The notes: generated from the sequence alone by a model not told the origin. A stretch of 64,000 nucleotides of DNA from a virus (IMGVR_UViG_3300048090_000069:25652-89651), one strand, 5' to 3'; positions 6,288 through 44,042 are shown, numbered from the stretch's first letter. A program made the numbers and translations.

Positions 6288-6326
6288 AGGAGATATAAAA
6301 TTAAAATAGTAAGTCCTCAAACTGTT

Positions 6327-7460
6327 GTGGACAGTGCATTAGTCTCAAGTAACGTGAGTGCTACCAGTGCAACAGCGTGGAGTGCTAGCACAGTATATGT
6401 TCTTGGGGATATTGTACAGTATGACGCAACAAATAGCCATCGTACATTCCAATCTAAACTTGGAGTGACAAGTACAGTAACCATAACTATTGCCTCCCCG
6501 GCTGTTGTAACAATGACAGGACATGGACAAGTGGCAAACACACCTTGGCAAGCATCCACTACGGGTGCTCTGCCTACAGGTATTGTAGCAGGAACAGTAT
6601 ACTACATTCTTGCTCCTACAGCAAATACTTTCAACCTTTCTGCAACTCCTGGTGGTGCAGCGATCAATACAACTGGCACTCAATCTGGCACGCATACAGC
6701 TAAAGCTTCTTTGAATTATAACAAAAATCCTTCTACAGATGACGGGACAAATTGGATTAATACAGGAAGTACAAATCGTTGGAAGATGTTCGATCAAAGC
6801 GTTCAAAGTCAGACAACAAACTCTAATACAATTGATGCTGTAGTTACTTTTTCGTCTATTGTAGATACTGTTGCATTTCTTAATTTAAGTGCTCAATCGG
6901 TTAGAGTAAAGGTAACACATCCTGTAGATGGGATATTGTATGACCAAACACAAACACTAACATCCAGTTCTGGTATTACTGATTGGTACACTTATTTCTT
7001 TACCCCAATCAGACGGAAGACAGATATTGTATTTTATGATTTACCTAAATATTCCAATGTCCAAATTGAAGTGATTGTAAGTAATACAGGAGGTACAGCA
7101 GGTTGCGGCGGTTGTATATTTGGGCAAACTACCGACATTTCTAGTGAAGGGTTGGGCGTAGAGCATGGCGCTAAACTAGGTATTCAAGATTATTCGATTA
7201 AGAGCACTGATGACTTTGGTAATTTTAACATTGTCCAGAGAGCTTTTAACAGAAGAACAGATTTTAATATTTTCATCAATAACACAGATTTAGACTATGT
7301 TTACAATTTGTTGTCTGAAAGAAGGGCTATACCAACATTATATATTGGAAGTTCTAGATTCGGTTCAACACTTGTTTACGGATTCTATAAAGATTTTAGT
7401 ATTGATATTTCTTATTACGATTGTTCTGTAGTTTCAATTACATTAGAAGGACTCACATAA
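6327..7460 (+). CDS. tail/baseplate structural protein (Thr/Ser-rich), GTG start
   Basis: 377-aa ORF immediately downstream of the TMP. It is T/S/N-rich like distal tail proteins. No specific motif was recognised. Confidence 0.4.
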   Translation: MDSALVSSNVSATSATAWSASTVYVLGDIVQYDATNSHRTFQSKLGVTSTVTITIASPAVVTMTGHGQVANTPWQASTTGALPTGIVAGTVYYILAPTANTFNLSATPGGAAINTTGTQSGTHTAKASLNYNKNPSTDDGTNWINTGSTNRWKMFDQSVQSQTTNSNTIDAVVTFSSIVDTVAFLNLSAQSVRVKVTHPVDGILYDQTQTLTSSSGITDWYTYFFTPIRRKTDIVFYDLPKYSNVQIEVIVSNTGGTAGCGGCIFGQTTDISSEGLGVEHGAKLGIQDYSIKSTDDFGNFNIVQRAFNRRTDFNIFINNTDLDYVYNLLSERRAIPTLYIGSSRFGSTLVYGFYKDFSIDISYYDCSVVSITLEGLT

Positions 7461-29460: not shown

Positions 29461-30478
29461 AGTAATATTTCACCATCCTTTCCACTAACACAGGATTGAG
29501 CGTTACAATATCTTTCTTAAGACGTTCCTCAGTTTTCTCCTGCTTGACGTAAGACATAAATGCACCAAGCTCTTTACCTTGTAAGCCTGTCCAGCCTGCT
29601 ACAAGCTCACCATTATAACGCCTTTTGAACTCCTGATGATAAGCTAAGTCTGCTTGAGCCTGTTCGTATTGTTCTTTGAATGTTGGAATCTTTTCAAACA
29701 AATAAGGCAACCAACCAGATTTATCAGTACCACCGCGATATTTTTGTGCATTTTGTGTGTTTGTCTCTTCATAGTGTTCAATCCACTCCAAGAAACTTGT
29801 GTACGTCTTCCTCTTGGCATCCCTTGTTCTAGCAGCATGATTACGATTCTCCAGAGCATAAATACTTTTGTTGAAGAACGAACTTGAAACGACAAACTTG
29901 AAAATATCTTCCAGTGCATCGAAGCCTTGTTGATAGCGGCTAAAGTCGTAGCCAAGCACAGGAAGAATCTGCTCCCAATCTTTCAACAGAGTGATTTCAC
30001 GGAACACTTGTGTCTTGTCTGCATAGAATTTGTATGTCAGGCCGTCATGCCCTAACTTGAGTCCCATGGAGTGAGCTACACGACCAATGAGGTTGCCCAA
30101 GTCATTGTAGGCAAAATACTGCTGAGAACTCACATAATCCGCTGGCCTAGTTAAAATTAGATCAATTTGAAATTGTTTGTATTCAAAAGAAACAACGTTA
30201 CCGTTTTTGACAACTTCCTTTGTGTTGAACAATCGGATTAGTTTGTCCTCAATGTTGCAAGGGTCATATTTATCAGTGCAAGCCAGAACATCCATGTCAC
30301 CAAATGACTCTTTCAAGGTATATGCTTTGATAGTGGATACAGAATCAAAAGGAAAATTGTTTGAGATGATATCAAGCACTTCCTGCTCAAGCTGATGGTA
30401 TTCTTCTGCCTGATATCGTCGTGTTGTGCAATTCTTGAGTGCTGCGCCTCCCATTACTATCCCCCAATATCTCTGCAC
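29429..30478 (-). CDS. putative Pol-beta-superfamily nucleotidyltransferase-like protein
   Basis: Possible hG[GS]...DhDh element (ESFGDMDVL) with a downstream acidic strand (QIDLIL). No ligase KxDG motif. Function unassigned. Confidence 0.3.
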   Translation of the reverse strand: MQRYWGIVMGGAALKNCTTRRYQAEEYHQLEQEVLDIISNNFPFDSVSTIKAYTLKESFGDMDVLACTDKYDPCNIEDKLIRLFNTKEVVKNGNVVSFEYKQFQIDLILTRPADYVSSQQYFAYNDLGNLIGRVAHSMGLKLGHDGLTYKFYADKTQVFREITLLKDWEQILPVLGYDFSRYQQGFDALEDIFKFVVSSSFFNKSIYALENRNHAARTRDAKRKTYTSFLEWIEHYEETNTQNAQKYRGGTDKSGWLPYLFEKIPTFKEQYEQAQADLAYHQEFKRRYNGELVAGWTGLQGKELGAFMSYVKQEKTEERLKKDIVTLNPVLVERMVKYYFEKWKETTGI

Positions 30479-30628
30479 ATCTCTTGTTCAAACACAAAGC
30501 ACAATTCCCTGTACATCTGCTCACTCACAGGGTTAGCACTTAGACACATAGTTTCATGAATCCTCAAATAATCCTCATATCGGAAGTTCCTCGCCCAAGC
30601 TTCCGCTTCTGGAGTGCTCCAAATTGAT

Positions 30629-31030
30629 TTAATCATTAATTATAACCCTTCCACTCGACAGTGTAATTTCTTTCTCTTCGTTTGGCAAATACTCTTTCCA
30701 TGTCTTGCTCCATCTGCCACGGAAGCTTAACACCCATGTTTTCTCCGCTACACCAAACACTTTGTGCATACGCTCACGAGTGGTGTAGACAGGCTTCAAA
30801 GAAGGTTTAAAAGTTGTTACATCATAATTCATATCATCTTTGACTACTTCTACCAAACCACCACTCAACACCCATGACACAGCATTAAACGCATGATTGT
30901 GAAAAGCTTCTCTGCTCCCCTTATCAAATCGCAGCAACACAATAGAGAACAGAGATTTAGCCTCAAAGAGCCAATATCCTGTGACGTTAGACTCAGAGCC
31001 ACCGTCTTTACTCTTGAAGAATATTTTCAT
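30629..31030 (-). CDS. hypothetical protein (possible cupin-like)
   Basis: 133 aa with an HNHAF..G motif. Weak call. Confidence 0.4.
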   Translation of the reverse strand: MKIFFKSKDGGSESNVTGYWLFEAKSLFSIVLLRFDKGSREAFHNHAFNAVSWVLSGGLVEVVKDDMNYDVTTFKPSLKPVYTTRERMHKVFGVAEKTWVLSFRGRWSKTWKEYLPNEEKEITLSSGRVIIND

Positions 31031-31421
31031 CGTTCAACTCCCGAATATCTTCCTCAGTAATGGTGTATTCTTTGATATCTTTCACACTGTAGAATGTAGG
31101 TTTGCAATATTTTTCAAACCAACTCTTGAGAAAATCATCCAACTCATTACGTTCTTCTTTAGAAACATCTGGGAAATCTTCTGCCCATTCCCCCGCAAAG
31201 TCCCAAGCACGCTCACCGAGCATTTCAATGATGTCTCCTGAATCAACAAGCTTTGTTACGTCAAGAGCTACAGCAGTGCCATAATACAGCGTATCACCTA
31301 CTTGTGCAGGAATATATTCACCATTAATGTATGAAAATTGTGCTTCCAGAGCCTCATACATTGTATCGTGATTGTAAGATTCTCCGTCTGTTGACCAGAC
31401 AATATCACCATCTCTACTCAT
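31008..31421 (-). CDS. hypothetical acidic protein
   Basis: 137-aa ORF. Confidence 0.45.
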   Translation of the reverse strand: MSRDGDIVWSTDGESYNHDTMYEALEAQFSYINGEYIPAQVGDTLYYGTAVALDVTKLVDSGDIIEMLGERAWDFAGEWAEDFPDVSKEERNELDDFLKSWFEKYCKPTFYSVKDIKEYTITEEDIRELNDENILQE

Positions 31422-31678
31422 CAGAAACTCACATCGGAATTTTGCAATTCCTTCAGAATAATCTTCAGAGCTTTCTGATTACGCACGGCTGTCCGCAGAG
31501 CTTCCCGTTCTTTTTCTTTCAGATTGTGATAGATATACTCCGCTTCCAGAGCACCACATTCATCTGCTTCCTTTTTAATTCGTTTAAATTCTGCCACAAT
31601 TTCATGTCGAACACTGATGACCTGTCGGCCTTGGTCAATCATCGATTGTACAGCACTAATAATTTGTTGTTTGTTCAT
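31421..31678 (-). CDS. hypothetical protein
   Basis: 85-aa ORF, coupled to its neighbour. Confidence 0.4.
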   Translation of the reverse strand: MNKQQIISAVQSMIDQGRQVISVRHEIVAEFKRIKKEADECGALEAEYIYHNLKEKEREALRTAVRNQKALKIILKELQNSDVSF

Positions 31679-31879
31679 TTAATCTCCCATTTCCAAATAG
31701 TTTCTCTTCAACACCATAATAATTTCAATGTGAAATATCTCTTGCATTATTCCACCGTAAAACTTATCCAATTCCAAACACTCTTCCTCGCCTAAATACA
31801 CTTTGCTCGGCCATGTTCTGTAAGGCTTTTCTAAATATTGCACAAGAGATGTTTCAATTTTATCTCTAATTGTTACCAC
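31679..31879 (-). CDS. hypothetical protein
   Basis: 66-aa ORF. Confidence 0.35.
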   Translation of the reverse strand: MVTIRDKIETSLVQYLEKPYRTWPSKVYLGEEECLELDKFYGGIMQEIFHIEIIMVLKRNYLEMGD

Positions 31880-32071
31880 TTAAATATCCCTCACCTTGTC
31901 CTGCAACACAATTTGAATACACATCAAATCATCTTGTTTCTCTTTCGGCACATTGGGCTTAAACTCCTCTACAGCAGCCATACACTCTTTCTTTGTTGTG
32001 AATTGATCGAGGAAGGCTACAACAGGATAAGGGTTTGTTTGAAGAAATGCCACAAGAATATATGCATACAT
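31880..32071 (-). CDS. hypothetical protein
   Basis: 63-aa ORF. Confidence 0.35.
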   Translation of the reverse strand: MYAYILVAFLQTNPYPVVAFLDQFTTKKECMAAVEEFKPNVPKEKQDDLMCIQIVLQDKVRDI

Positions 32072-32080
32072 TTTACACTC

Positions 32081-32368
32081 CTAAGGAAAATAACCCAAGA
32101 TGACAGCAACACAAAGGGCAACAGTGGCGAGAATCCCCACAGAGTATTTTACAGCTTTCACATTGTCTCCTTCAGAACAGTCAAAGATGTCAGCAATAAA
32201 TGCCACTCCAGCCAATATGATGAACATACAACAAATAACACTAAAGCCTGTCATAGCAGCAAACTCCCTATAGAAAGTAAGATTATAACACAGAAGGTTG
32301 AAAAGTACAAGGTGGAAGGCTCTCGCCAACCCTCTAGACGGGACAGATGGTAGGTGCCAAGGCCACAT
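32081..32368 (-). CDS. small membrane protein (likely shorter, starting at internal Met); a 59-aa lipobox-containing ORF (approx 32264..32443, other frame) overlaps
   Basis: Hydrophobic C-terminal half. The alternative frame encodes MTLRETRMYALIFLLCLILVACG..., a lipoprotein-like signal. Confidence 0.3.
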   Translation of the reverse strand: MWPWHLPSVPSRGLARAFHLVLFNLLCYNLTFYREFAAMTGFSVICCMFIILAGVAFIADIFDCSEGDNVKAVKYSVGILATVALCVAVILGYFP

Positions 32369-32451
32369 GCCACTAGGATGAGACAGAGTAGGAAGATTAG
32401 TGCGTACATTCTTGTTTCTCTCAATGTCATAAGGGGCTTCGGCCCCTGTTG

Positions 32452-33255
32452 TTATTTCGTGTTGACAATGCCCCGGAAGTCGGATGGAATCACAATCGTA
32501 TTCACCTTACCATTACGAACACCTTCAGCAATCATCAGTTGTGCCTGAGCCTGCATATACGAAATAGATTGACCTGCATTGTTTGCCAGAGAAGCCATAC
32601 GTTCAGACTCTTTCTTAGCAGTTTGCACTTCCACTTCCTTTGCTGCCAGTTCGCTCTTAGCCTTAATCAGATTGTTAGCTGCATCAATGATAGCAGGATT
32701 TGCCTTAATACTACGAGCTTGCACTTGAGTTACGAGAACAGCGTTATCCAACTTTTCCTCTGCCAGAGTTTGTTTCACTTGTGCAAGAATCTCATGTTCA
32801 ATGTCTGCACGATGGTCATTCATTGTCAGAGCGTCATACTGACGTGCCACTTTGTAAACAGCATTCTTAACAGTGTTTTGCAGGTAAGTGTGCATAAGAT
32901 GGATTTCACCTTGATCATCAAGAGCGTGGAAGCTGCGATTCTTGTTAATGTACAAATCACTTACAGAGCTTGGGTTAATGCTGTAGACAACAGATACATC
33001 GAAGTCGCCCATTGTAGAATTATCCTTTGCCAGAGGCGTAAGGTCAGACACATCTACAGAGATTTCCTTGATAGGAACTTCCAGCACAGAACCTACGAGA
33101 GTTTGATTGAACGAACCAGCCACCAATTCTGTACTGTCAATGGTGTTGTTAAAATTCTTACGCAGACCAACCTTACCTTGATCAACAACTTTGAAACAAC
33201 CCGACAGAGAGCTTGCCATAATAATAGCAGCTACAACAGACATAAACTTTTTCAT
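32452..33255 (-). CDS. SPFH/band-7 (prohibitin/HflC-like) domain lipoprotein
   Basis: Signal peptide with lipobox (SLSGC). The body is an SPFH-like domain followed by a long Ala/Gln-rich coiled-coil tail. Confidence 0.6.
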   Translation of the reverse strand: MKKFMSVVAAIIMASSLSGCFKVVDQGKVGLRKNFNNTIDSTELVAGSFNQTLVGSVLEVPIKEISVDVSDLTPLAKDNSTMGDFDVSVVYSINPSSVSDLYINKNRSFHALDDQGEIHLMHTYLQNTVKNAVYKVARQYDALTMNDHRADIEHEILAQVKQTLAEEKLDNAVLVTQVQARSIKANPAIIDAANNLIKAKSELAAKEVEVQTAKKESERMASLANNAGQSISYMQAQAQLMIAEGVRNGKVNTIVIPSDFRGIVNTK

Positions 33256-33280
33256 AAATATTCCTCCTAGAATAAATTAA

Positions 33281-33499
33281 TTAACCAAAAATACTAATAG
33301 CAATGACCGTAATACCACAGCCAGTGATAAGACCTGTGACAGCACTAGTGAAAATATTATTAGGCTGCTTTACCAAAGGGCCAAAATATACGCCAATTCC
33401 AACCATCAAAACACCTAACAGGCACAGTAACATTTTTACTTCTCCTAGAAAACAATCACAAGGGCTGTGATGACCATAATAGATATGATACCACAACAA
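33281..33499 (-). CDS. small membrane protein (2 TM)
   Basis: 72 aa, hydrophobic. Confidence 0.45.
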   Translation of the reverse strand: MLWYHIYYGHHSPCDCFLGEVKMLLCLLGVLMVGIGVYFGPLVKQPNNIFTSAVTGLITGCGITVIAISIFG

Positions 33500-35785: not shown

Positions 35786-36088
35786 TTAGTTCCTCACACT
35801 CTGAATAGCACTCTCGGAAGCATCTTCAACAATCTCATCTCGCCATTGTTTTAGCAGAGCCAGTAATTGACTCTCCAGAGTAGGTGTAGGATTATTCTCA
35901 GGCTCTTTAACTTTCACCAGATGAAGCTTCTCAGCAACGTCTTTGTGCAGAAGTTTGTTCAGAACATTTGTCTGATAGTAACTACCCTTGCCACTTGGGC
36001 GAGAAGTGATAGAGATTTCAAAGTAATCTTCTTCATTCGTGCCAGATTTACCGCTCACATCACATACGTAGGTTTTAATTAGTGCCAT
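35786..36088 (-). CDS. hypothetical protein
   Basis: 100-aa ORF with ATGA-type coupling to its neighbour. Confidence 0.45.
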   Translation of the reverse strand: MALIKTYVCDVSGKSGTNEEDYFEISITSRPSGKGSYYQTNVLNKLLHKDVAEKLHLVKVKEPENNPTPTLESQLLALLKQWRDEIVEDASESAIQSVRN

Positions 36089-37002
36089 TATGCTGCTTCC
36101 TTTTGTTTAGTTTGTTGAACAATACCATTTTTGATTGCTTCATCTACTTTGTCCATATAACCTTTACCTTCTTTCTCATACAGTTCCATCACAGCATAAG
36201 CGTTCTCCCATGCAAACTCCCGGAAATATCCACCGCAGATTGATGAACTCACTTTTCCCAGAGCAAACTTAAAGCTCCAATCAGGATCAGGACGAGGATT
36301 GAAACATAGCTGCGAGCGTTCAGCGGCCAAAGTTAGGCATTCTTCTAGCACACCATACAACTGAACCTCACGAGAACACTGTTTGAATTTGGACATGTCT
36401 GACCAAACTTCACCTCCAGCATAAGACAGATAAGCAGGTTGATCCATAAACTTCACTGCTTGGTGAATATCGTCATGTTCCCACTCGTAATTAATACCAT
36501 CACCAGCAAAGAATTCACCCTTCTTCACATTCAGTTTTGGCGTTTTATGTATGTAGGTATCTTTCTCACGATCAGCAAGAAACTCTTTGTGCTCCTCACG
36601 AATCTTTGCACCAGCTTTACGCAAAGCAAAGATATCATCCATTGTTTTAAAATGGTGTGGCGAATCTTTTAGATATCTATGAGACATCTTCAGCAGCAAC
36701 AGGACATCCAAAGAAGGAACAATCATCCCCTGTCCCACCCTGCCATTGTCAGATTGACCCTCAACAAACTTAATCAGCTTTTCTGCACGAGAGCCTTCCC
36801 ACGCTATTTCGGCTTCATGGATAACACCCTCACTGTCACGCATGAAGATTGTCTTACCTTCATTGATTGGATAGAACACTTTGATATTATTCCTCTTACG
36901 ATAGGCTTCAATTTCATCGTAAGTGCCTACAAGGTCTACATCAAGTGGCTCTCGCCAATCAGGGAGCCAATATTGAATAGCACGAGAGCCAATGAGTAGC
37001 AT
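36088..37002 (-). CDS. minimal Pol-beta-type nucleotidyltransferase (MNT-like) domain protein
   Basis: N-terminus MLLIGSRAIQYWLPDWREPLDVDLVG fits hG[GS]-x(9-14)-DhDh. A 300-aa C-terminal region is unassigned. Confidence 0.45.
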   Translation of the reverse strand: MLLIGSRAIQYWLPDWREPLDVDLVGTYDEIEAYRKRNNIKVFYPINEGKTIFMRDSEGVIHEAEIAWEGSRAEKLIKFVEGQSDNGRVGQGMIVPSLDVLLLLKMSHRYLKDSPHHFKTMDDIFALRKAGAKIREEHKEFLADREKDTYIHKTPKLNVKKGEFFAGDGINYEWEHDDIHQAVKFMDQPAYLSYAGGEVWSDMSKFKQCSREVQLYGVLEECLTLAAERSQLCFNPRPDPDWSFKFALGKVSSSICGGYFREFAWENAYAVMELYEKEGKGYMDKVDEAIKNGIVQQTKQKEAA

Positions 37003-37015: not shown

Positions 37016-37279
37016 TTAACAATCGTAAGAAGAACTGTTCCAATCGGGATGCATAGAGTCAATTGAAGCAATTTCACTCTCAAACACACCGTAAGAGCCA
37101 CCAATCTTAACTTCAGCACCAGACAGTTTAACAACCTCTTTAATCTCTTTCAGAATCATTTTGATTGCTGCCACCTTTTCAGCTACAAGTTTAGTGCCAA
37201 CTTGTTTCGTCATAGGCACTTGACCAGAAGCTTTCAGCAGTTCTTCGTATTTTTCACGAGAAATAGTTACAGTAGTCAT
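37016..37279 (-). CDS. hypothetical protein
   Basis: 87-aa ORF. Confidence 0.4.
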   Translation of the reverse strand: MTTVTISREKYEELLKASGQVPMTKQVGTKLVAEKVAAIKMILKEIKEVVKLSGAEVKIGGSYGVFESEIASIDSMHPDWNSSSYDC

Positions 37280-37296
37280 TTGTTTATTCCTTTATT

Positions 37297-37479
37297 TTAG
37301 CAAGAAGAATAGTTCCAGTCAATCCAGTCACCCGTCACATCTTCATACAGGTTCTGCATCGCACTGTCAAAATCAAAGTAGACGTTGTTACTATCTGCCA
37401 GTTCTTTAGCAGAATTCAGCAGGTTCTTTGCATCTTCAATTTGTTGTGCAATTAGAGCCAGAATTTCTTGTTGAGTCAT
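37297..37479 (-). CDS. hypothetical protein
   Basis: 60-aa ORF. Confidence 0.3.
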   Translation of the reverse strand: MTQQEILALIAQQIEDAKNLLNSAKELADSNNVYFDFDSAMQNLYEDVTGDWIDWNYSSC

Positions 37480-37506
37480 TTTAGTTTCCTTTAAAATAGT
37501 TTTATA

Positions 37507-37983
37507 TCAGCAACGGCTAGAGTGCCAGTTACGCGATTCAGATTCCATACTATCAATGATACTAAATAGTGCATCTACAGCTTTATTGTCAGGCAGACCT
37601 TCGTAACGCTGTTCCAGTTGGCAATAATAACCATCATTACTCCACTCTTCAGAGAATGGTAGATAATAAGAGACACCAGAAATATCACTAATCAGTTTTG
37701 CTTGTGCCAGATTCTTCTCTGCTACAGCAGCCAGTGCTGTAACTTTTTCAGAAACATCTTCTACACCCTCTGCCTCTTCATCACGTTCATCATCTACTTC
37801 AACCAATTCAAGAATTTCTTTAACAGCACTCTCACCAGCTTCAATAAATTGTGCAATGTATTTATTTGCATCTTTACGAACTTCTTTTTGAATCTGCTTC
37901 AGTTCTTCTAGGGTGCGACCCGCAATGATAATATTTTCCATGTTATCTCCTTTAATTAACAGCTTTGGCTCGACGCAAACCAT
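37507..37983 (-). CDS. hypothetical acidic protein
   Basis: 158-aa ORF. Confidence 0.45.
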   Translation of the reverse strand: MVCVEPKLLIKGDNMENIIIAGRTLEELKQIQKEVRKDANKYIAQFIEAGESAVKEILELVEVDDERDEEAEGVEDVSEKVTALAAVAEKNLAQAKLISDISGVSYYLPFSEEWSNDGYYCQLEQRYEGLPDNKAVDALFSIIDSMESESRNWHSSRC

Positions 37984-38141
37984 TCGCCCTCTGTACCATC
38001 ATAAGTTCCGCCCATACCATACGTAGGTGTAATGTGGAAACTCAGATTGTGTTCCATTGCAAAACATTCTGCTTTGCTCAGTGCTGCTTCAAATTCACTT
38101 ACCAATACTGCCAGTTGTGCGTTCAGTTCTTTCTTGCTCAT
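37956..38141 (-). CDS. hypothetical protein
   Basis: 61-aa ORF. Confidence 0.3.
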   Translation of the reverse strand: MSKKELNAQLAVLVSEFEAALSKAECFAMEHNLSFHITPTYGMGGTYDGTEGEWFASSQSC

Positions 38142-38142
38142 T

Positions 38143-38508
38143 TTACAGTTCCTTATAATGTTTACGAATCACTTTTGCAATTTGTTTGAAAGTCCATTCT
38201 GCATCATCGTTCAAATCAATCAGACTGTCGGCAGTAGGAACTTCTTTAATCAAACCACGAGGGAATTTACCTGAGACAGAATCCATACCTACCCAATCTC
38301 TCACTTCAAATGGAAGTTTAGTTTCTTCTCCCAGATATTCATACATACTCGTTTGTTCAGCAGCGATTTCAGGATGCTCTTGTGCATGAATGTTGCACAG
38401 GACACCAAGGCAGCAGAAGCCAACAGTATTACGAAGTTCACCCCTTGTTTGTTGATATTCACCACTCTCTAAAGCTTTTGCCCATTTACGAGCAATAGAA
38501 CGTTTCAT
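38143..38508 (-). CDS. hypothetical protein
   Basis: 121-aa ORF. Confidence 0.45.
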   Translation of the reverse strand: MKRSIARKWAKALESGEYQQTRGELRNTVGFCCLGVLCNIHAQEHPEIAAEQTSMYEYLGEETKLPFEVRDWVGMDSVSGKFPRGLIKEVPTADSLIDLNDDAEWTFKQIAKVIRKHYKEL

Positions 38509-38924
38509 GTTTCCTCCATGTAAAATTTATGTAAACCAATTGTGCGACGATGTTTAAACTTCTTATTCCACTCAGGATGTTTGTCCAACCTATGAAAATG
38601 AGAACATCCTCTACAGACAGGAGACATTCTAAACAACTCTTCCCATCCTGTCAAGCTCTTTGTTTCAATAATCTTCTGCCATGTGAAGCCAGAGAATTGC
38701 TTAGGCTGTAGAGCCACAACAGGGCAACTCTTGTTTGTACGTTTCATCCTCTCTAGAACTACGTCCATCACTGCACGCTTCCCTGCTAAGGACTCCCCTG
38801 AAGCCTCATGCTCTACGACAGCTTTCAAACAAACAGTGTCAGAGACAGCGAAGCTCCTAGAGGGATTGTCTACGTTGATACAAACAAAGAGTAGAAGAAG
38901 GCTCCAGAGCCATTTCAAGGCCAC
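38505..38924 (-). CDS. secreted SleB-like cell-wall hydrolase (Hydrolase_2 family)
   Basis: N-terminal signal peptide. The body carries EASGESLAGKRAVMDVVLERM...PKQFSGF, matching the SleB/CwlJ-type hydrolase motif. Confidence 0.5.
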   Translation of the reverse strand: MALKWLWSLLLLFVCINVDNPSRSFAVSDTVCLKAVVEHEASGESLAGKRAVMDVVLERMKRTNKSCPVVALQPKQFSGFTWQKIIETKSLTGWEELFRMSPVCRGCSHFHRLDKHPEWNKKFKHRRTIGLHKFYMEET

Positions 38925-40540
38925 AGGCGCTTACGAATCTTTTCTAGAGAGTCTTCTACAACCAGCTTACCATCTTCAAACACTGTTCGCAGTAATCCTT
39001 GTTTCTCTTCTTCAGGAGTTTGCTCATCGTACAGGACAAACCTCCCATCTTCATATTCTACACGGAGCAAACCTTTAGCAGATTTCTTCATGCCATCACC
39101 CGTTTTAGGGTCTTTGAAAATGTTACGTGGCTCTCCATTGACAATGCCGTAAGTGGCTTTCATAGCAAAGCCGTAGCTGTCACGAGTGACATGCTGATAG
39201 GTGTAGGAGCCAATGCCAAATACAATGTTAGAAGAGGCAAAGCCTTTAGCTTCCAGACGCTTCAGAATTTGCTGAGCACGTTCCAGAGTGATGCTGTCTC
39301 CGTAAATCAGACCAACACGAGGATTCAACATTTTGTGTCCTGTCTCGGACAGAGTACCACCAAAGATGTCCCAAAGGCATTCTACAGAGCCTTTTACTTC
39401 GTGCTCTGACACTTCCCGGCCTAGTTCAATGTCCATCAGACAATTACAAGAATCCCCACAGAAACTGTAATCAAATTCGTAATACTTGCCGTCTTTGACC
39501 GCTACATCAGTGGAATAGATATTGTCCTCGCAAACATCGTCAATATCTGTCACACGAAGTCCAGCAACAATTTTTACAGGATCACCACTATCAGGACGGA
39601 ACACCACCTTAGCATTACCCAGAGCATCAGGCTTACGTGCAAGGATGATGTCTTTCAGTTGTGCAGCAGTGTTTGTAATGACATTCCAGTAGTCCCAAGT
39701 GTCCGAAACAATACTAACAATACCGGACGGATATAGGTCAGTGATGAGACGCTTAATTGTAGCGTATTCACCTTCATCTGCCCCGCCCATGCACATTACA
39801 GAATGCTCCGTAGCTGGAACAGACCCACCAACAAACGTTTCACTGCCCTTGTAGTACTTTTCCAGATATTCAATGGCAGAAATAGTGTCAGTGCCAAGGA
39901 AAGACAGTAAGTGACCCGGAGCACTTTGAGCACCATCGAAGCTCCCAGACAAACCACGAAGCGAGAAATCATGACCTTGCCACAGAATAAACTCCTTAGG
40001 CGCACCTGTCTTTTCTGCATAATCCGTCAGCAGCTTACGATATTGGTAAGCAGTGGTTGCAGTGGTCGTAGGCTTCCACAGGTTGTTGCTGTACGCATCT
40101 TCCAGATAACCAACCAGCCAGCCAAAGCCGATCACCGTATTAGTGACAGTGAGTACAGGTACTTTAATATCTACCAAACTACCTTCAGGCAAAGCTTTGA
40201 TGCGCAGCGGCAGATAGCCCAAATCATGCAGGGCCGCAATGTGCGAGACATCAACAGCATCAGGGCCAAGGCACTTATCCATCATGGCTTTGTATTCACC
40301 TACAGCTTGTTCCTTTGGAACATTGAAGAATTGTTCATTGAACAAATCAATCAGGAAGTATTTGATAAAGCCTTGCAGGCCAAAGAATACAATCTTCTCG
40401 TCAAACGTATCTTTCAGCTTTGGTGCAAGCCGAGAGGAACGGGCAGTGAAATTAGAATAGACGTATTCCGTACCTTCTGGATACATCTTAACGTGTCCCG
40501 TCTTGTACATATCAGCAGCAAACAGCGGATTCAGTTTCAT
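38915..40540 (-). CDS. nadV: nicotinamide phosphoribosyltransferase family protein (Nampt/NadV homolog; could be the Namat-type nicotinamide ADP-ribose transferase)
   Basis: 541 aa with clear Nampt-family similarity along its length (MKLNPLFAADMYKTGH..., GTDT, C-terminal region). It is adjacent to a Prs-like gene. Confidence 0.85.
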   Translation of the reverse strand: MKLNPLFAADMYKTGHVKMYPEGTEYVYSNFTARSSRLAPKLKDTFDEKIVFFGLQGFIKYFLIDLFNEQFFNVPKEQAVGEYKAMMDKCLGPDAVDVSHIAALHDLGYLPLRIKALPEGSLVDIKVPVLTVTNTVIGFGWLVGYLEDAYSNNLWKPTTTATTAYQYRKLLTDYAEKTGAPKEFILWQGHDFSLRGLSGSFDGAQSAPGHLLSFLGTDTISAIEYLEKYYKGSETFVGGSVPATEHSVMCMGGADEGEYATIKRLITDLYPSGIVSIVSDTWDYWNVITNTAAQLKDIILARKPDALGNAKVVFRPDSGDPVKIVAGLRVTDIDDVCEDNIYSTDVAVKDGKYYEFDYSFCGDSCNCLMDIELGREVSEHEVKGSVECLWDIFGGTLSETGHKMLNPRVGLIYGDSITLERAQQILKRLEAKGFASSNIVFGIGSYTYQHVTRDSYGFAMKATYGIVNGEPRNIFKDPKTGDGMKKSAKGLLRVEYEDGRFVLYDEQTPEEEKQGLLRTVFEDGKLVVEDSLEKIRKRLWP

Positions 40541-40543
40541 TGT

Positions 40544-41368
40544 TTAAATTTCCTTAATTTTATTGTGAGAGCCAAACATATTGTTTACAACATAGATATT
40601 GTCATACACATCAGCAACAATGTCAACACCTTTAGTAAAAATACCATGTGTCACCATGATGTTGATAGTGCCGTGATAGTGCATCTGAAGCTCGTCAGCC
40701 AGCGGAATGAACGTGCCGCCACCATCTAGAATATCATCTACGACAAGAACATTTTTGTCTTCAAATTGCCCAATATCATTGTACACAACAGTGCCAGTGA
40801 TTTTCCCCGTCTTGACATCTCGTGTCTTGTCAGCCCTCATCACTTCCACTTCGGGAATATACGTAGAGACAAACTGAGCATACTTCTGAATCTTCTTCAA
40901 TGCCCCAGCATCAGGACTTACAATCACAGTGGCCTTGCAATCTTGCATAGCTTTCAACACTTTTTGTTCCACAGAGCAAATATGAATGTTGTACAACAGA
41001 GCACCTAAAACATCACTGTGAGGGTCTGTGACAAACACCCTATCAAAATTCATGCTGTTAATGAAATTACAAATAACTTTCAAACTATGACTCTCTCCAG
41101 CATTACAAACCCTATCTTGGCGAGCATATGGGAAATAATCAATCGTCAGATTTACAGGAATCTTCGGATAGTTTCTCCGCACAGCATCATTCAGCAGAGC
41201 AAGTTCAATCAAATCCTCATTACCTTGCCACTTCAATGTAATATGTGCTTGAGGGTGTTGTGAATTATATCCCAAAGCCATATCAGTTAGCTTAATACCG
41301 GTTTCTCCTGCTGGAAAATTCCATCTATTAATTGTTACAGGATGGCGGTCTACATATAAACTAAGCAT
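40544..41368 (-). CDS. prs: ribose-phosphate pyrophosphokinase family protein (Prs homolog; could be Adps-type ADPR pyrophosphokinase)
   Basis: YARQDR motif and PRPP-binding loop VVDDILDGGGT are present. At 274 aa it is shorter than canonical Prs. Confidence 0.85.
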   Translation of the reverse strand: MLSLYVDRHPVTINRWNFPAGETGIKLTDMALGYNSQHPQAHITLKWQGNEDLIELALLNDAVRRNYPKIPVNLTIDYFPYARQDRVCNAGESHSLKVICNFINSMNFDRVFVTDPHSDVLGALLYNIHICSVEQKVLKAMQDCKATVIVSPDAGALKKIQKYAQFVSTYIPEVEVMRADKTRDVKTGKITGTVVYNDIGQFEDKNVLVVDDILDGGGTFIPLADELQMHYHGTINIMVTHGIFTKGVDIVADVYDNIYVVNNMFGSHNKIKEI

Positions 41369-42291: not shown

Positions 42292-42397
42292 CTTCCCTCC
42301 TCTTTAGACTTCATACAAAGAACATTGTACAACACATTTCTACAAAGCACAAGCACAAAAAGAAAAAGGCTCCCGAAGGAGCCTAAAAGCATGCTTT

Positions 42398-43930
42398 TTA
42401 TGTTATTTGTAGAAGTGTTGTTGGCAAACCTACAATCAAACTGACAAGTTCTGCGTCTAACCCTGAGAGGGCAGCGCTCTTGTATACAGCATCATGCACT
42501 GTAGAAGTGTATTGCTTACTCCTAGAACCTAGTGTATGATTTTGGCTGTTCAGAGACAAGCCAGAGTAAACGTTAAACTGCTCCTTAGTCCATGCTACAG
42601 GGCCAGTGGTTGCATTTTTGACTTTGTACCCTGTACCAGAGAACATATTGTTCATACAGATAACGTTGTTCAAAAGTGCTGCTGTAGAGGTAGTTTGGAT
42701 AGCTGCATCTGTTATACCGATGAATACATTGTTGAAAACCTTGTTGTCACAAGCGCCTGCTGTATCTCCTAAGAAGAATCCTGTTTTCATTGTGACAAAC
42801 TGATTGCCGTATATGTAATTGTTTGTGCATTTGCCAAGAATCATGACACCACAACCACTATTGAATACACCAGCCTTACCTACAATATTGCTAATTTTGT
42901 TTCTACGTACAATTGTGTTCTTTGTTCCAATATCTAATAGAATTCCGTTAGCATCAATTGTACTTGTGTAAAATGTATCTCCTACATTGTCTTGAATGAT
43001 ATACCTACCGTAGAAGCTATCCACGAAACCTGTCGGCCCTTGTATATTGGAAGCATAATTATCGGAAATGATGTTGTCACCGAATGTTGTATAGCTGTAT
43101 GACAGAGCAAAACCCCAAACACCGATACAACCGCCAAAGATGTCTGTTGGTGATTCAAGTCCATTAAGGAACTTATTCCCTTTGATTTGGCACCCTTGCG
43201 CTTGGTAGGCTTGACCTGTTGTACCGGGGCAGGTAAGTTCGATAGCACATCCCCTATAGTTATTGAAGGTATTATAATTAATCTTAATATCTGCCATATA
43301 CGCGGCAGAATTACTATCAGTTTGTGTGCGGAACTCAATAACAGAACGATTAGCAGCATTCGTGAATGTATTCCCCTCAATGGTACACCGAAGCATGCTA
43401 GAGTTAGCAGCACTTTGAACCCACCATCTCAAAGCTGCATGATTTGTAGAGCCTCCTGCTGTCGTGTTGAAAGTGTTTCCACGAATCTCAATGTCAGAAT
43501 GTGTATCACCAGAAGCAGAGAAGCGGATAGCAGATGTACCACCGGGAGTATCAAAGATGTTGCCAATGTAACGAGAACCCCAAGCAGCACCGTTGTGTGT
43601 AACAGCGGCAAGGGATTGGAAAAACATAATATTTGTACCAGTTCTTCCATTTGTTAGAGTGTTAGTAAGTGTAGGTGAAAATACGATACTACCAACAGAC
43701 GGGGCGTAGTCACCACGAATTGTGCAAGGTGTTGTTACACTTCCTCCGTGTGCTCCTACAGAGATACCTGCTGCATAGGTGTGTACTCCGCAAACATAGA
43801 GGTCATCCCCACCTTTAACGCCAGAGGCTCCCCATACAATCTCACTCCATCCACCCCATGCATTAGCGTAAGAAGTTCCGTTCCTTGTGCCTGAATGACT
43901 TGTATCAGGTCTTACATACCACGTAGCCAT
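42398..43930 (-). CDS. right-handed beta-helix (pectate-lyase fold) protein, tailspike/depolymerase-like
   Basis: About 510 aa. The N-terminus (MATWYVRPDTSHSGTRNGTSYANAWGGW) is typical of pectate-lyase-fold enzymes. Many N-x-F/I-x-G-N repeat rungs follow. A GAGGA RBS lies 8 nt before the second ATG. Confidence 0.6.
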   Translation of the reverse strand: MATWYVRPDTSHSGTRNGTSYANAWGGWSEIVWGASGVKGGDDLYVCGVHTYAAGISVGAHGGSVTTPCTIRGDYAPSVGSIVFSPTLTNTLTNGRTGTNIMFFQSLAAVTHNGAAWGSRYIGNIFDTPGGTSAIRFSASGDTHSDIEIRGNTFNTTAGGSTNHAALRWWVQSAANSSMLRCTIEGNTFTNAANRSVIEFRTQTDSNSAAYMADIKINYNTFNNYRGCAIELTCPGTTGQAYQAQGCQIKGNKFLNGLESPTDIFGGCIGVWGFALSYSYTTFGDNIISDNYASNIQGPTGFVDSFYGRYIIQDNVGDTFYTSTIDANGILLDIGTKNTIVRRNKISNIVGKAGVFNSGCGVMILGKCTNNYIYGNQFVTMKTGFFLGDTAGACDNKVFNNVFIGITDAAIQTTSTAALLNNVICMNNMFSGTGYKVKNATTGPVAWTKEQFNVYSGLSLNSQNHTLGSRSKQYTSTVHDAVYKSAALSGLDAELVSLIVGLPTTLLQIT

Positions 43931-43974
43931 TGTAAAAATCCTCATAAACGTTTATAGAAAGTGCTTGACAAGTG

Positions 43975-44003
43975 ATCAGCTTATCTGTAGAATCATAGCA
44001 TTC
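43975..44003 (+). promoter_or_regulatory. sigma70-type early promoter (TTGACA-17-TAGAAT) in divergent region
   Basis: GTGCTTGACAAGTGATC...TAGAAT with a 17-nt spacer, 40 nt upstream of the first plus-strand early gene. Confidence 0.6.
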
Positions 44004-44042
44004 GCAATACAATCAGTCAAAATTTACAAACAGGAGGATATT

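What the first reader, a model, noticed from the sequence alone, without database searches (positions are those of the whole stretch)
38915..41368. Adjacent Prs-like and Nampt-like genes: candidate phage NAD+ reconstitution pathway (NARP1-type Adps/Namat or NadV/Prs salvage)
A PRPP-synthetase-family protein (YARQDR motif, VVDDILDGGGT loop; only 274 aa) sits directly upstream of a 541-aa Nampt-family protein in the same operon. Phage Prs-like/Nampt-like pairs have been reported to act as ADPR-pyrophosphokinase (Adps) plus nicotinamide-ADPR transferase (Namat). Together these would rebuild NAD+ from ADPR and nicotinamide after depletion by Thoeris/DSR/SIR2-type defences. Alternatively the pair forms a classical nicotinamide-to-NMN salvage route. 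No Nmnat gene is obvious nearby, which favours the two-enzyme Adps/Namat interpretation.
Basis: partly seen in the sequence, partly recalled or inferred. Interest (0 to 1): 0.7.

Follow-up and report, generated by a model that had tools for sequence, protein, structure and literature searches.

The report
Phage two-gene NAD+ rebuilding operon (NARP1)
An uncultivated ~90-kb phage carries an adjacent pair of enzyme genes that most likely rebuild NAD+ from the fragments left by bacterial NAD+-destroying defences; the pathway (NARP1) is already well described, so this is a new member of it, not a new system.

Summary
On the minus strand, a 274-aa PRPP-synthetase-like ORF (40544..41368) is followed after 3 nt by a 541-aa Nampt-like ORF (38915..40540).

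Both proteins fall with the characterised NARP1 enzymes, not with housekeeping Prs or the NARP2-type Nampt.
- The small protein scores like the reference (shown or assumed active) Adps proteins on a general PRPS model: 114 bits against 96-106 for Adps and 423 for E. coli Prs.
- On an HMM built from three reference Adps it scores 153 bits; E. coli Prs scores 75.
- It keeps the catalytic Lys on the K-x-R-D-x-x-T-G hairpin. It lacks the N-terminal helix and C-terminal helices of PRPS.
- The large protein is 47-49% identical to SPbetaL1, FADO and ICP1 Namat, and 28% to a KVP40-like Nampt.
- Its best structural match is the SPbetaL1 Namat crystal structure.
- It carries the published Namat clamp: GSYTYQHVTRD plus Arg37. 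Position 7 is His instead of Tyr.

No NMN adenylyltransferase, Macro, RyR, PnuC or NadR hit was found in the window, or on record for the called genes of the ~12.5 kb read beyond it (~76 of ~89.6 kb in all).

Verdict: a plain two-gene NARP1 (Adps + Namat), a new member of a known kind. Activity is inferred, not shown. Interest is low to moderate.

The parts
40544..41368 (-). adps-like gene, 274 aa: PRPS-fold ADP-ribose pyrophosphokinase candidate
   Evidence: ORF. phrog_619 at E 7e-80. TIGR01251 scores 114 bits, against 96-106 for ICP1, SPbetaL1 and FADO Adps and 423 for E. coli Prs. On an Adps-only HMM it scores 153 bits and E. coli Prs 75. The AF2 model has pLDDT 93.3 and a PRPS fold.
40805..40828 (-). 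Adps catalytic beta-hairpin motif K181-T-R-D-V-K-T-G188, equivalent to ICP1 K185-I-R-D-V-K-T-G192
   Evidence: Alignments. The Lys is invariant in 120/120 homologues. E. coli Prs reads K-R-R-P-R-A-N here.
40709..40738 (-). Adps PP loop D211-D-I-L-D-G-G-G-T-F220, equivalent to ICP1 D212-D-I-C-D-G-A-A-S-F221
   Evidence: The DD, D215, T219 and F220 are conserved. It matches the Adps-specific pattern DD[IL][CLS][DS][GFY]G[GR]TF that retrieved 588 relatives. E. coli Prs reads DDMIDTGGTL.
40541..40555 (-). Gene junction: AAGGA ribosome-binding site inside the adps 3' end, TAA stop and a 3-nt spacer before the namat ATG
   Evidence: Sequence read directly.
38915..40540 (-). namat-like gene, 541 aa: nicotinamide ADP-ribose transferase candidate
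   Evidence: ORF. phrog_448 at E 2e-192 and NF006629 at E 1e-165. 47-49% identity to SPbetaL1, FADO and ICP1 Namat. The best PDB sequence and fold match is 9w5x, the SPbetaL1 Namat.
39179..39211 (-). Namat selectivity-clamp helix motif (SCH) G444-S-Y-T-Y-Q-H-V-T-R-D454
   Evidence: with the motif definition from PMC12774641. The KVP40-like nt-1 Nampt reads GGGLLQQLDRD.
40430..40432 (-). Namat selectivity-clamp loop (SCL) stacking residue Arg37, equivalent to SPbetaL1 Arg40
   Evidence: Alignments.
39398..39559 (-). Insertion of about 45-54 aa in Namat (aa 328-381) relative to SPbetaL1 and ICP1 Namat; beta-rich, with four Cys
   Evidence: The site is a length hot spot, 15-97 aa across 120 homologues. 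The model predicts strands 330-332, 346-349, 352-360 and 369-377, with pLDDT 93-96 except 75 at 361-370.

Best explanation
The two genes form a plain two-gene NAD+ reconstitution pathway 1 (NARP1) operon in an uncultivated ~89.6-kb phage.

Proposed mechanism; every step is inferred by homology and none was assayed for these proteins:
1. Host TIR, SIR2 or SEFIR-type defence effectors cleave NAD+ into ADP-ribose (ADPR) and nicotinamide.
2. The 274-aa Adps binds ADPR in the PRPS-like interdomain groove, using R83, H117, D153, D211/D212 and F18 from the neighbouring subunit. It binds ATP on the D215-G-G-G-T-F220 loop. With K181 on the beta-hairpin, it transfers the beta,gamma-pyrophosphate of ATP onto the distal ribose. 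The products are ADPR-PP and AMP.
3. The dimeric 541-aa Namat sandwiches nicotinamide between F192 and Y12'. It uses the Nampt-type core: D218, H246, R315 and D317. It grips the adenine of ADPR-PP with the clamp formed by R37', Y446, H450, T452' and D454'. It joins nicotinamide to the ribose, releasing PPi and NAD+.

Net reaction: ADPR + nicotinamide + ATP -> NAD+ + AMP + PPi. This would let the phage replicate in cells whose defences deplete NAD+.
For: Adps side:
- The general PRPS model TIGR01251 gives 114 bits for the window protein. It gives 98, 106 and 96.5 for ICP1, SPbetaL1 and FADO Adps, and 423 for E. coli Prs. All PRPS equivalog cut-offs are missed by 190-480 bits.
- An HMM of the three reference Adps (activity shown for ICP1 and SPbetaL1; FADO by operon deletion) gives 153 bits for the window protein and 75 for E. 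coli Prs. A five-member HMM gives 211 and 97.
- BLASTP gives 119 bits to ICP1 Adps and 69 to E. coli Prs.
- K185, R87, H121, D161, D212, D213, D216, F18 and F221 (ICP1 numbering) are all conserved.
- The AF2 model (pLDDT 93.3) has the PRPS fold but no N-terminal helix and no C-terminal helices. PMC13586617 calls the C-terminal loss a defining signature of the family.

Namat side:
- It is 47-49% identical to three reference Namats and 28% to the KVP40-like nt-1 Nampt.
- The tblastn ranking is bimodal: 37-58% identity, then 29% or less.
- The best PDB sequence hit is 9w5x at 512 bits, against 211 for human NAMPT. 9w5x is SPbetaL1 Namat.
- Foldseek's best hit is 9w5x: E 1e-59, TMt 0.94.
- The listed NAD+-contact residues are identical to SPbetaL1 except two. 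A362 is Ser here, as in ICP1, FADO and 120/120 homologues. Y396 is His.
- The SCH motif reads GSYTYQHVTRD and the SCL Arg37 is present.

Context:
- The two genes are 3 nt apart with a ribosome-binding site.
- The pair is conserved on relatives' contigs.
- No NMNAT, Macro, RyR, PnuC or NadR hit was found. The flanking ORFs were scanned here; the other called genes were checked only against precomputed Pfam records.
- In 80 bacterial loci with homologues, the pair sits with ADPR-linked genes: NrtR-like in 71/80, plus Macro, ARH, PARG, NADAR and Tpt1 in the Bacteroidota loci inspected. No NMNAT was seen among the genes examined.

Literature: 97% of Adps-clade genes lie next to a Namat gene (10.1101/2024.02.11.579819).
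Against: - No biochemical or genetic data exist for these proteins.
- Among Adps-like proteins this one is slightly more PRPS-like. It has YARQDR and DGGGT, passes the TIGR01251 cut-off by 1 bit, and scores 69 bits to E. coli Prs where other Adps score 50-61. Residual PRPP synthetase activity therefore cannot be excluded.
- ICP1 Phe92, an adenine contact, is Cys88 here. It is also not conserved in SPbetaL1 (Ser), and it is Cys in 105/120 relatives.
- Position 7 of the Namat clamp is His rather than Tyr or Phe, as in 16/120 homologues.
- Sequence similarity alone does not fix donor preference. H. ducreyi NadV is deposited as a NadV with NMN and nicotinamide complexes, and is 42% identical. An Acinetobacter chromosomal NadV is 58% identical, and related Acinetobacter NadV enzymes were characterised as NMN-forming (my own knowledge). 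Namat itself makes NMN from PRPP in vitro (PMC12774641).
- About 13 kb of the genome, probably the head-gene module, was not readable. An Nmnat there is not excluded.
- No tree with a broad panel of canonical Prs was built.
Confidence: 0.85

Rival explanations
1. Classical nicotinamide salvage: the small protein is a true PRPP synthetase and the large one a true Nampt/NadV. Together they make NMN, which a host enzyme or an unseen phage NMN adenylyltransferase converts to NAD+. This would be a NARP2-like logic without a linked Nmnat.
For: - Pfam and NCBIfam name the proteins Prs and Nampt, and TIGR01251 is just passed.
- YARQDR and DGGGT resemble the PRPS motifs.
- The best annotated match of the large protein (58%) is a bacterial NadV. 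H. ducreyi NadV is 42% identical.
- Namat enzymes retain NMN-forming activity in vitro (PMC12774641).
- About 13 kb of the genome was not read.
Against: - The small protein scores 300 bits below a real Prs and like the reference (shown or assumed active) Adps proteins.
- It lacks the N- and C-terminal PRPS elements.
- The large protein has the Namat adenine clamp that the PRPP-preferring nt-1/KVP40-type enzyme lacks. It is only 28% identical to that type.
- The 'NMNAT' next to the Acinetobacter NadV is really an NrtR regulator.
- No NMNAT hit was found in ~76 kb read.
- In phage Bas63 the homologous pair works without host nadR/pncC (10.1101/2024.02.11.579819).
Confidence: 0.06
2. Dual-use pair: this sub-clade (Cys88, DGGGT loop, His450) works on both ribose-5-phosphate/PRPP and ADPR/ADPR-PP. 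The phage would then both top up NMN and recycle ADPR.
For: - The window Adps is marginally closer to PRPS than the other Adps are.
- SPbetaL1 Namat uses both donors in vitro (PMC12774641).
- Clamp position 7 is His.
Against: - The differences from the reference (shown or assumed active) Adps proteins are small: 114 bits against 96-106.
- Cys88 and GG[GR]T are simply the majority states of the clade.
- In the published work a single clamp substitution changes activity only 1.3-1.7-fold.
- No evidence shows that any Adps makes PRPP.
Confidence: 0.07
3. Auxiliary metabolic genes for nucleotide supply: the Prs-like enzyme boosts PRPP for nucleotide synthesis alongside the neighbouring ThyX, ribonucleotide reductase and DNA replication genes. 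The Nampt gene would be only incidentally adjacent.
For: The pair lies in a minus-strand block that also encodes ThyX, RNR, primase and DNA polymerase.
Against: - The adjacency is tight (3 nt) and conserved across distant relatives and bacteria.
- The protein is not a canonical Prs by any model cut-off except one marginal pass.
Confidence: 0.02

Closest known systems
NARP1 of Bacillus phage SPbetaL1 (Adps + Namat; Osterman et al., bioRxiv 10.1101/2024.02.11.579819; Namat structures 9w5w/9w5x, PMC12774641)
   Same: - Same two-gene order and tight linkage.
- Namat is 48% identical, with an identical catalytic core, the same 11-residue GS...TRD clamp frame and the same SCL Arg.
- It is the best fold match (TMt 0.94).
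- The Adps has a similar length (272 against 274 aa), the same hairpin Lys and the same truncations.
   Different: - Adps is only about 30% identical, and its PP loop reads DDILDGGGTF against DDLSSFGGTF.
- Clamp position 3 is Tyr against Phe, and position 7 is His against Tyr.
- The window Namat has a beta-rich insertion of about 45-54 aa after RPDSGDPVKI.
Vibrio phage ICP1 Adps/Namat (NrsA/NrsB, ORF228/229; Adps structures and assays in PMC13586617; anti-Nezha role in 10.1101/2024.06.17.599363)
   Same: - It is the closest reference Adps with shown activity: 34% identity and 119 bits.
- DPHSDV, K-x-RDVKTG-x-I, DDI-x-DG and THGIF-x-KG are shared.
- The Namat is 49% identical, and its clamp GSYTYQYVTRD differs from the window's at one residue.
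   Different: - ICP1 F92 is Cys88 in the window, and F223 is Pro.
- The PP loop reads GAAS in ICP1 and GGGT in the window.
- ICP1 has QARADR where the window has the PRPS-like YARQDR.
- ICP1 Namat has no insertion.
NARP1-AP (Adps + Macro-domain phosphatase Adpp + Namat; 10.64898/2026.01.28.702374), for example Rheinheimera phage Barba19A (macro domain protein, Prs-like, Nampt-like)
   Same: Core Adps and Namat homologues. The Barba19A Namat is 49% identical.
   Different: No Macro-domain gene lies within two genes of the window pair. The window operon should therefore not handle ADPR-1''-phosphate made by aRES defence.
NARP2 of Vibrio phage KVP40 (Nampt/NadV + Nmnat/NatV)
   Same: Same Nampt fold and catalytic core, and the same end product, NAD+.
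   Different: - The KVP40-like nt-1 Nampt is 28% identical and has GGGLLQQLDRD in place of the clamp.
- The window has no Nmnat partner.
- The window protein has an Adps partner, which NARP2 phages lack.
Bacterial chromosomal nrtR-prs-nadV operons (for example the Acinetobacter contig filed as 'phage MD-2021a'; Flavobacterium, Duganella, Achromobacter loci)
   Same: - The Prs-like partner is 35-43% identical and the NadV-like partner 41-58% identical.
- The hairpin, PP-loop and GS[FY]T/S..RD motifs are the same.
   Different: - These are chromosomal and have a gene for an NrtR-like regulator nearby. NrtR is ADPR-responsive (my own knowledge).
- They are often interleaved with Macro, ARH, PARG, NADAR and Tpt1 genes.
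- They presumably serve housekeeping or regulatory ADPR recycling rather than counter-defence.
Canonical class I PRPP synthetase (E. coli Prs, human PRPS1)
   Same: - Same two-domain fold (TMq 0.72-0.78).
- Shared catalytic residues: F35, R96, H131, D170, K194, D220, D221 and D224 in E. coli numbering.
   Different: - 24-28% identity.
- The window protein lacks the first helix and the C-terminal alpha11-alpha12 filament and allosteric module.
- The hairpin and the residue after the loop differ.

Membership tests
Adps (NARP1 step 1) | PRPS-like two-domain fold | tested here: met
   AF2 model with pLDDT 93.3 and pTM 0.88. Foldseek to E. coli and human PRPS gives E 1e-15 to 1e-16 and TMq 0.72-0.78.
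Adps (NARP1 step 1) | Falls with the Adps clade, apart from housekeeping Prs | tested here: met
   - TIGR01251 gives 114 bits, against 96-106 for reference (shown or assumed active) Adps proteins and 423 for E. coli Prs.
- The Adps-only HMM gives 153 bits, against 75 for E. coli Prs.
- BLASTP gives 119 bits to ICP1 Adps and 69 to E. coli Prs.
- Only one canonical Prs was available, so no full tree was built.
Adps (NARP1 step 1) | Loss of the C-terminal alpha11-alpha12 module of PRPS, called a defining signature in PMC13586617 | tested here: met
   27 residues follow the THGIFTKG motif, against about 58 in E. coli Prs. After strand 257-263 the model has only a short strand at 271-273 and no helices.
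Adps (NARP1 step 1) | Catalytic Lys185 on the beta-hairpin, plus acceptor residues R87, H121, D161, D212, D213 and D216 | tested here: met
   The equivalents K181, R83, H117, D153, D211, D212 and D215 are all present, and each is invariant in 120/120 homologues. Most are shared with PRPS, so they show an intact active site rather than specificity.
Adps (NARP1 step 1) | Aromatic contacts to the ADPR adenine (ICP1 F18' and F92) | tested here: inconclusive
   F18 is present, but it is also present in E. coli Prs. F92 is Cys88 in the window. It is Ser in SPbetaL1 and FADO and Cys in 105/120 relatives, so F92 is not a family-wide feature.
Adps (NARP1 step 1) | Remodelled PP loop and donor site (ICP1 C215-D-G-A-A-S220, F221, F223) | tested here: inconclusive
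   The window reads L-D-G-G-G-T, then F220 and P222. F221 is conserved in 120/120 homologues, where Prs has Leu. The loop itself varies among reference Adps (SPbetaL1 reads SSFGGT) and is closer to the PRPS DTGGT.
Adps (NARP1 step 1) | Namat homologue in the immediate vicinity (97% of the clade) | tested here: met
   The next gene follows after a 3-nt spacer.
Adps (NARP1 step 1) | Converts ADPR + ATP to ADPR-PP + AMP | not testable with these tools
   Needs an enzyme assay with LC-MS.
Namat (NARP1 step 2) | Nampt-like fold with an intact catalytic core (SPbetaL1 D13', Y15', F189, R192, D215, catalytic His, R306, D308) | tested here: met
   The equivalents D10, Y12, F192, R195, D218, H246, R315 and D317 are present, and all invariant in the homologues. 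The model has pLDDT 93.5.
Namat (NARP1 step 2) | SCH clamp motif GS-X-Phi1-X-Phi2-X-Phi3-TRD in an 11-residue frame | tested here: met
   The window reads G444-S-Y-T-Y-Q-H-V-T-R-D454, with Phi1 = Thr, Phi2 = Gln and Phi3 = Val as in the consensus. The NARP2-type nt-1 enzyme reads GGGLLQQLDRD.
Namat (NARP1 step 2) | Aromatic Tyr or Phe at SCH positions 3 and 7, stacking on adenine | tested here: inconclusive
   Position 3 is Tyr446. Position 7 is His450, not Tyr or Phe. His occurs there in 16/120 close homologues and in 2 bacterial ones. His could still stack, but this is untested.
Namat (NARP1 step 2) | SCL loop supplies a stacking Arg, Lys or Tyr (SPbetaL1 Arg40) | tested here: met
   Arg37 aligns with Arg40. 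The loop is about 6 residues longer, and the published loop is variable in length.
Namat (NARP1 step 2) | Belongs to the Adps-associated clade, distinct from the KVP40-type Nampt clade | tested here: met
   The identity distribution is bimodal: 37-58%, then 29% or less. Identity is 47-49% to three reference Namats. The best fold and sequence match is 9w5x.
Namat (NARP1 step 2) | Prefers ADPR-PP over PRPP and forms NAD+ directly | not testable with these tools
   Needs a competition assay.
NARP2 (Nampt + Nmnat) | Nmnat encoded in the same phage (94% of KVP40-type Nampt phages) | tested here: not met
   No PF01467-type hit, or any NAD-related hit, is on record or found for the genes of the 64-kb window plus about 12.5 kb beyond it. 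About 13 kb of the genome is unread.
NARP1-AP | Macro-domain phosphatase (Adpp) within two genes of the pair | tested here: not met
   The flanking ORFs are 65-139 aa. Their only hit is a SleB-type cell-wall hydrolase, and no Macro hit appears even at E <= 1. The published screen used HHpred, which is more sensitive than hmmscan.
NARP3 (PnuC + NadR) | PnuC-like transporter and NadR-like enzyme | tested here: not met
   Neither family appears among the Pfam hits along the contigs.
Canonical PRPP synthetase (Prs) | Reaches the curated NCBIfam equivalog or subfamily scores for ribose-phosphate diphosphokinase | tested here: not met
   The window protein scores 57-104 bits against cut-offs of 296-536. 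Only the broad TIGR01251 model is passed, by 1 bit (114.1 against 113). E. coli Prs scores 423-533.

The most novel reading that the evidence does not exclude
This sub-clade may be an evolutionary intermediate or a specificity variant. Its Adps keeps more PRPS character (YARQDR, DGGGT, Cys88). Its Namat has His at clamp position 7 and a confidently predicted beta-rich, four-Cys insertion next to the RPDSGDP strand. The pair might accept additional substrates, such as ribose-5-phosphate/PRPP or other ADPR derivatives. Alternatively, the insertion might add regulation or a partner contact absent from the characterised enzymes.
Probability: 0.1. Interest if true: 0.45.

Novelty: new member of a known kind. 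Interest (0 to 1): 0.25.

Why it matters
It adds a divergent NARP1 operon from an uncultivated phage lineage. The Adps is at most 43% and the Namat at most 55% identical to any true phage record; the 58% top hit is a mis-filed bacterial contig. The closest isolate is Pseudomonas phage vB_PsaM_M1, at 43% identity in DNA polymerase.

It also shows which published 'defining' residues actually hold across the family:
- The hairpin Lys, the Phe after the PP loop, the truncations and the GS...TRD frame hold.
- ICP1 Phe92 and the exact PP-loop sequence do not.
- His is a recurrent alternative at clamp position 7.

Practically, it predicts that this phage resists Thoeris, DSR and SIR2-HerA-type NAD+ depletion. 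It should remain sensitive to aRES, because the operon lacks the Macro phosphatase. It does not open a new question.

Tried and rejected
- Megablast of the 2.45-kb region against phage genomes found no match.
- The PDB sequence search with the small protein returned only PRPS entries. The ICP1 Adps structures are not in the copy, so no direct Adps structural comparison was possible.
- I guessed accession MZ501111 for Bas63. It is Bas51, so Bas63 was not used as a reference.
- A literature search for PDB codes 9KE8/9KEO found nothing relevant. Foldseek later identified 9ke8 as H. ducreyi NadV.
- The best 'phage' hit, 'Acinetobacter phage MD-2021a', first looked like a prs-nadV-NMNAT salvage operon and so a threat to the NARP1 reading. 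It is a bacterial chromosome fragment, and its third gene is an NrtR regulator.
- I considered the Namat insertion as something special. It was rejected as unusual because the site is a length hot spot in 120 homologues.
- I looked for Macro, RyR, NMNAT, PnuC and NadR among the neighbours and along the contigs. None was found.
- The promoter scan gave no more hits than shuffled sequence.
- I could not walk into the remaining ~13 kb of the genome, because only window-encoded proteins can be looked up.
- The genome scan used Adps-specific patterns and returned no canonical Prs, so no Prs/Adps tree was built.

Full report
**1. Observation**

The minus strand carries a 274-aa ORF (40544..41368) and a 541-aa ORF (38915..40540), exactly as reported.
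- They are separated by 3 nt: TAA at 40546..40544, 'aca', then ATG at 40540..40538. An AAGGA ribosome-binding site lies inside the end of the first gene.
- The preceding 73-aa ORF overlaps the first gene by 8 nt, and an AAGGAAG site precedes its ATG.
- The quoted motifs YARQDR and VVDDILDGGGT are present.
- The 541-aa protein matches Pfam NAPRTase plus NAMPT_N, phrog_448 (E 2e-192) and NF006629 (E 1e-165).
- The 274-aa protein matches Pribosyltran_N plus Pribosyltran and phrog_619 (E 7e-80).

**2. Source**

- The region has no megablast match among 50,697 phage records.
- Identical proteins occur on metagenome contigs (JGI 3300046684, Logan SRR26076604 and others), again adjacent.
- Piecing contigs together shows a circularly permuted genome of about 89.6 kb. 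The window covers 64 kb of it.
- The pair sits in a long minus-strand block with ThyX, Band_7, primase, family-A DNA polymerase and ribonucleotide reductase.
- The closest isolate by DNA polymerase is Pseudomonas phage vB_PsaM_M1 (89.4 kb), at 43% identity.

**3. What defines the known system**

NARP1 (Osterman et al., 10.1101/2024.02.11.579819) has two enzymes. Adps is a Prs-like enzyme that makes ADPR-PP from ADPR and ATP. Namat is a Nampt-like enzyme that joins nicotinamide to ADPR-PP to give NAD+.
- Adps forms a phage-dominated clade apart from Prs, and 97% of its members have a Namat neighbour.
- Namat forms a clade apart from the KVP40-type Nampt of NARP2, which is accompanied by an Nmnat.
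- The ICP1 Adps structures (PMC13586617) give the key residues: F18', R87, F92, H121, D161, K185, D212/D213, and the PP loop C215-S220 with F221 and F223. They name loss of the C-terminal alpha11-alpha12 module as a family signature.
- The SPbetaL1 Namat structures (PMC12774641) define a 'selectivity clamp'. [quoted passage not shown]

I fetched the reference pairs from ICP1, SPbetaL1 and FADO (enzyme activity is shown for ICP1 Adps and the SPbetaL1 pair; FADO rests on an operon deletion). I also fetched E. coli Prs and the KVP40-like nt-1 Nampt.

**4. The small protein**

*Similarity scores*
- On the general PRPS model TIGR01251, E. coli Prs scores 423 bits. The three reference Adps score 96.5-106 and the window protein 114.
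- Every PRPS equivalog cut-off is missed by hundreds of bits.
- On an HMM built only from ICP1, SPbetaL1 and FADO Adps, the window protein scores 153 bits and E. coli Prs 75. With five references the scores are 211 and 97.
- BLASTP gives 119 bits to ICP1 Adps. That is more than ICP1 gives to SPbetaL1 (89-96). E. coli Prs gives 69.

*Residues*
- Conserved: K181 (=K185) in K-T-R-D-V-K-T-G, R83, H117, D153, D211/D212, D215, F18 and F220.
- Not conserved: ICP1 F92 is Cys88. That position is Ser in SPbetaL1 and FADO and Cys in 105/120 relatives, so it is not a family feature.
- The PP loop reads LDGGGT, against CDGAAS in ICP1 and SSFGGT in SPbetaL1. It varies within the family.

*Structure*
- The protein lacks the first helix of PRPS and about 31 C-terminal residues.
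- The AF2 model (pLDDT 93.3) has seven strands and three main helices in the N-domain, the hairpin at 175-196 and no C-terminal helices. This matches the published description of ICP1 Adps.
- Foldseek finds only PRPS structures (TMq 0.72-0.78), because no Adps entry is in the library.

**5. The large protein**

*Similarity*
- It is 47-49% identical to SPbetaL1, FADO and ICP1 Namat. These three are equally distant from one another.
- A spread listing of 2,049 phage matches is bimodal. Identity runs from 37 to 58% (290-607 bits), then drops to 29% or less (106-190 bits) for nt-1 and the Klebsiella T4-like phages.
- The best PDB sequence match is 9w5x/9w5w at 512 bits, against 211 for human NAMPT. 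9w5x is SPbetaL1 Namat at 100% identity.
- The AF2 model (pLDDT 93.5) best matches 9w5x: E 1e-59, TMt 0.94. Next come H. ducreyi NadV (42% identity) and human NAMPT (28%).

*Residues*
- The listed NAD+-contact residues are identical to SPbetaL1 apart from Ser416 for Ala362 and His450 for Tyr396. Ser416 matches ICP1, FADO and all 120 homologues.
- The SCH motif reads G444-S-Y-T-Y-Q-H-V-T-R-D454. ICP1 reads GSYTYQYVTRD, SPbetaL1 GSFTYQYNTRD and nt-1 GGGLLQQLDRD.
- Arg37 aligns with the clamp Arg40.
- The one departure is His at position 7. His occurs there in 16/120 close homologues, and the exact window motif in 8.

*Insertion*
- Residues 328-381 are an insertion relative to the reference Namats, predicted as a small beta-rich module.
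- The site varies from 15 to 97 residues in homologues, with three length classes. The insertion is therefore ordinary for the family.

**6. The main rival**

The highest-scoring annotated match (58%) is filed as 'Acinetobacter phage MD-2021a'. It appeared to lie in a prs-nadV-'NMNAT/ADPR pyrophosphatase' operon.
- That contig is bacterial chromosome.
- Its third gene is an NrtR regulator (NUDIX + NrtR_WHD) rather than an NMNAT.
- Its NadV carries the Namat clamp (GSFTYNYLTRD), and its Prs paralogue carries the Adps features.

A scan of one genome per species with Adps-specific patterns found at least 588 bacterial relatives. Among the best 80 loci:
- 71 have an NrtR-like gene within 4 kb;
- 60 have a Namat-like gene within 4 kb;
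- in Bacteroidota, the gap between the two genes holds NADAR, Macro-ARH, Tpt1/KptA, microbial PARG, Macro and metallophosphatase genes;
- among the genes inspected between the pair, no NMNAT was seen.

The guilt-by-association signal for this clade is therefore ADP-ribose metabolism, not NMN adenylylation.

For the phage itself, no NMNAT, Macro, RyR, PnuC or NadR hit was found. The ORFs flanking the pair, and a few others, were scanned here; the other called genes rest on precomputed Pfam records. Together this covers the 64-kb window plus about 12.5 kb beyond it. About 13 kb, probably head genes, could not be read.

**7. Mechanism**

All steps are inferred.
1. Host NADases yield ADPR and nicotinamide.
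2. [quoted passage not shown]
3. Namat clamps the adenine of ADPR-PP with R37', Y446 and H450. It joins nicotinamide using the Nampt-type core (F192/Y12', D218, H246, R315, D317).

The net reaction is ADPR + nicotinamide + ATP -> NAD+ + AMP + PPi. The operon has no Macro phosphatase or RyR glycosidase. It is therefore the basic form, and should not cope with ADPR-1''-phosphate from aRES (10.64898/2026.01.28.702374).

**8. Caveats**

- There is no assay.
- This Adps is slightly more PRPS-like than the reference ones.
- The effect of His450 is untested.
- Relatives at 42-58% identity are known or annotated as NMN-forming NadV, and Namat itself can make NMN in vitro. Donor preference therefore cannot be read from similarity alone.
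- Only one canonical Prs was available for comparison.

**9. Verdict**

This is a new, divergent member of a known kind. NARP1 is found in about 4% of sequenced phages and has been characterised biochemically and structurally. Interest is low to moderate.

Noticed in passing
L011 (CAKLQF020000015.1, 46529-58004), genes at 4099-4983, 4995-6488 and 6549-7316: The INPHARED record 'Acinetobacter phage MD-2021a' is a bacterial chromosome fragment: ABC transporter, fepC, AraC and efflux genes. Its gene annotated 'bifunctional NMN adenylyltransferase/ADP-ribose pyrophosphatase' is a 255-aa NrtR-type regulator (NUDIX + NrtR_WHD). It sits after an Adps-like prsA_2 and a NadV with the Namat clamp motif.
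   Followed up: yes
Loci L020-L099 (bacterial genomes), for example L071:3962-8258, L079:3953-7526 and L089:3926-8559: Adps-like/Namat-like pairs are widespread in bacterial chromosomes, with at least 588 pattern hits. 71 of the best 80 loci have an NrtR-like gene within 4 kb. In Bacteroidota the two genes are separated by NADAR, Macro-ARH, Tpt1/KptA, microbial PARG, Macro, metallophosphatase, DUF4291 and deoxyribosyltransferase-like genes. This suggests large ADPR-recycling operons, possibly NrtR-controlled.
   Followed up: partly
window 37016-38141, minus strand: Four tandem small acidic ORFs (87, 60, 158 and 61 aa) just downstream of the pair are paralogues. They share an N-terminal helix and end in (D/E)-W-x(2-5)-S-S-x(0-2)-C as the very last residues. 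The 158-aa one carries the W...C module twice. No Pfam or PHROG family matches them.
   Followed up: partly
window 39398-39559 (Namat aa 328-381): The loop after RPDSGDPVKI in Namat homologues is an insertion hot spot with three length classes: about 17-25, 55-75 and 89-97 residues. The window version is a confidently predicted beta-rich module with four Cys (C338, C361, C365, C367).
   Followed up: partly
window 38505-38924, minus strand: A SleB-type cell-wall hydrolase (Pfam Hydrolase_2, full-length match to residues 43-135 of the 139-aa ORF) overlaps the Namat stop by 10 nt. The public gene call of 88 aa would truncate the domain, so the longer ORF is more likely.
   Followed up: partly
window 42398-43945 (minus strand), with terminator-like hairpin at 42367-42384: A 515-aa Gly/Asn/Thr-rich ORF with no Pfam or PHROG hit is followed by the strongest terminator-like site in the region. 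It is preceded by divergent promoter-like sites at about 43965-44020, where the coding strand switches.
   Followed up: no
L015:10059-15861 (same phage, about 3-9 kb beyond the window's right end): A resolvase, a large HNH protein, an AAA_33/zeta-toxin-like kinase (147 aa) and an RNA-ligase-like protein (429 aa) lie together. The kinase plus ligase pair resembles a tRNA-repair module against anticodon nucleases.
   Followed up: no
window 36088-37002, minus strand: A 304-aa protein with DUF7277 + DUF7275 (phrog_2141, E 1e-81) is a conserved phage protein of unknown function, five genes downstream of the pair.
   Followed up: no
L012 compared with window ~24800-33300: A closely related 87.9-kb contig (JGI 3300047447), which encodes the identical DNA polymerase protein, differs by inserted genes (PcfJ-like, HNH_3/AP2). 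This indicates homing-endonuclease-type mosaicism between strains.
   Followed up: no
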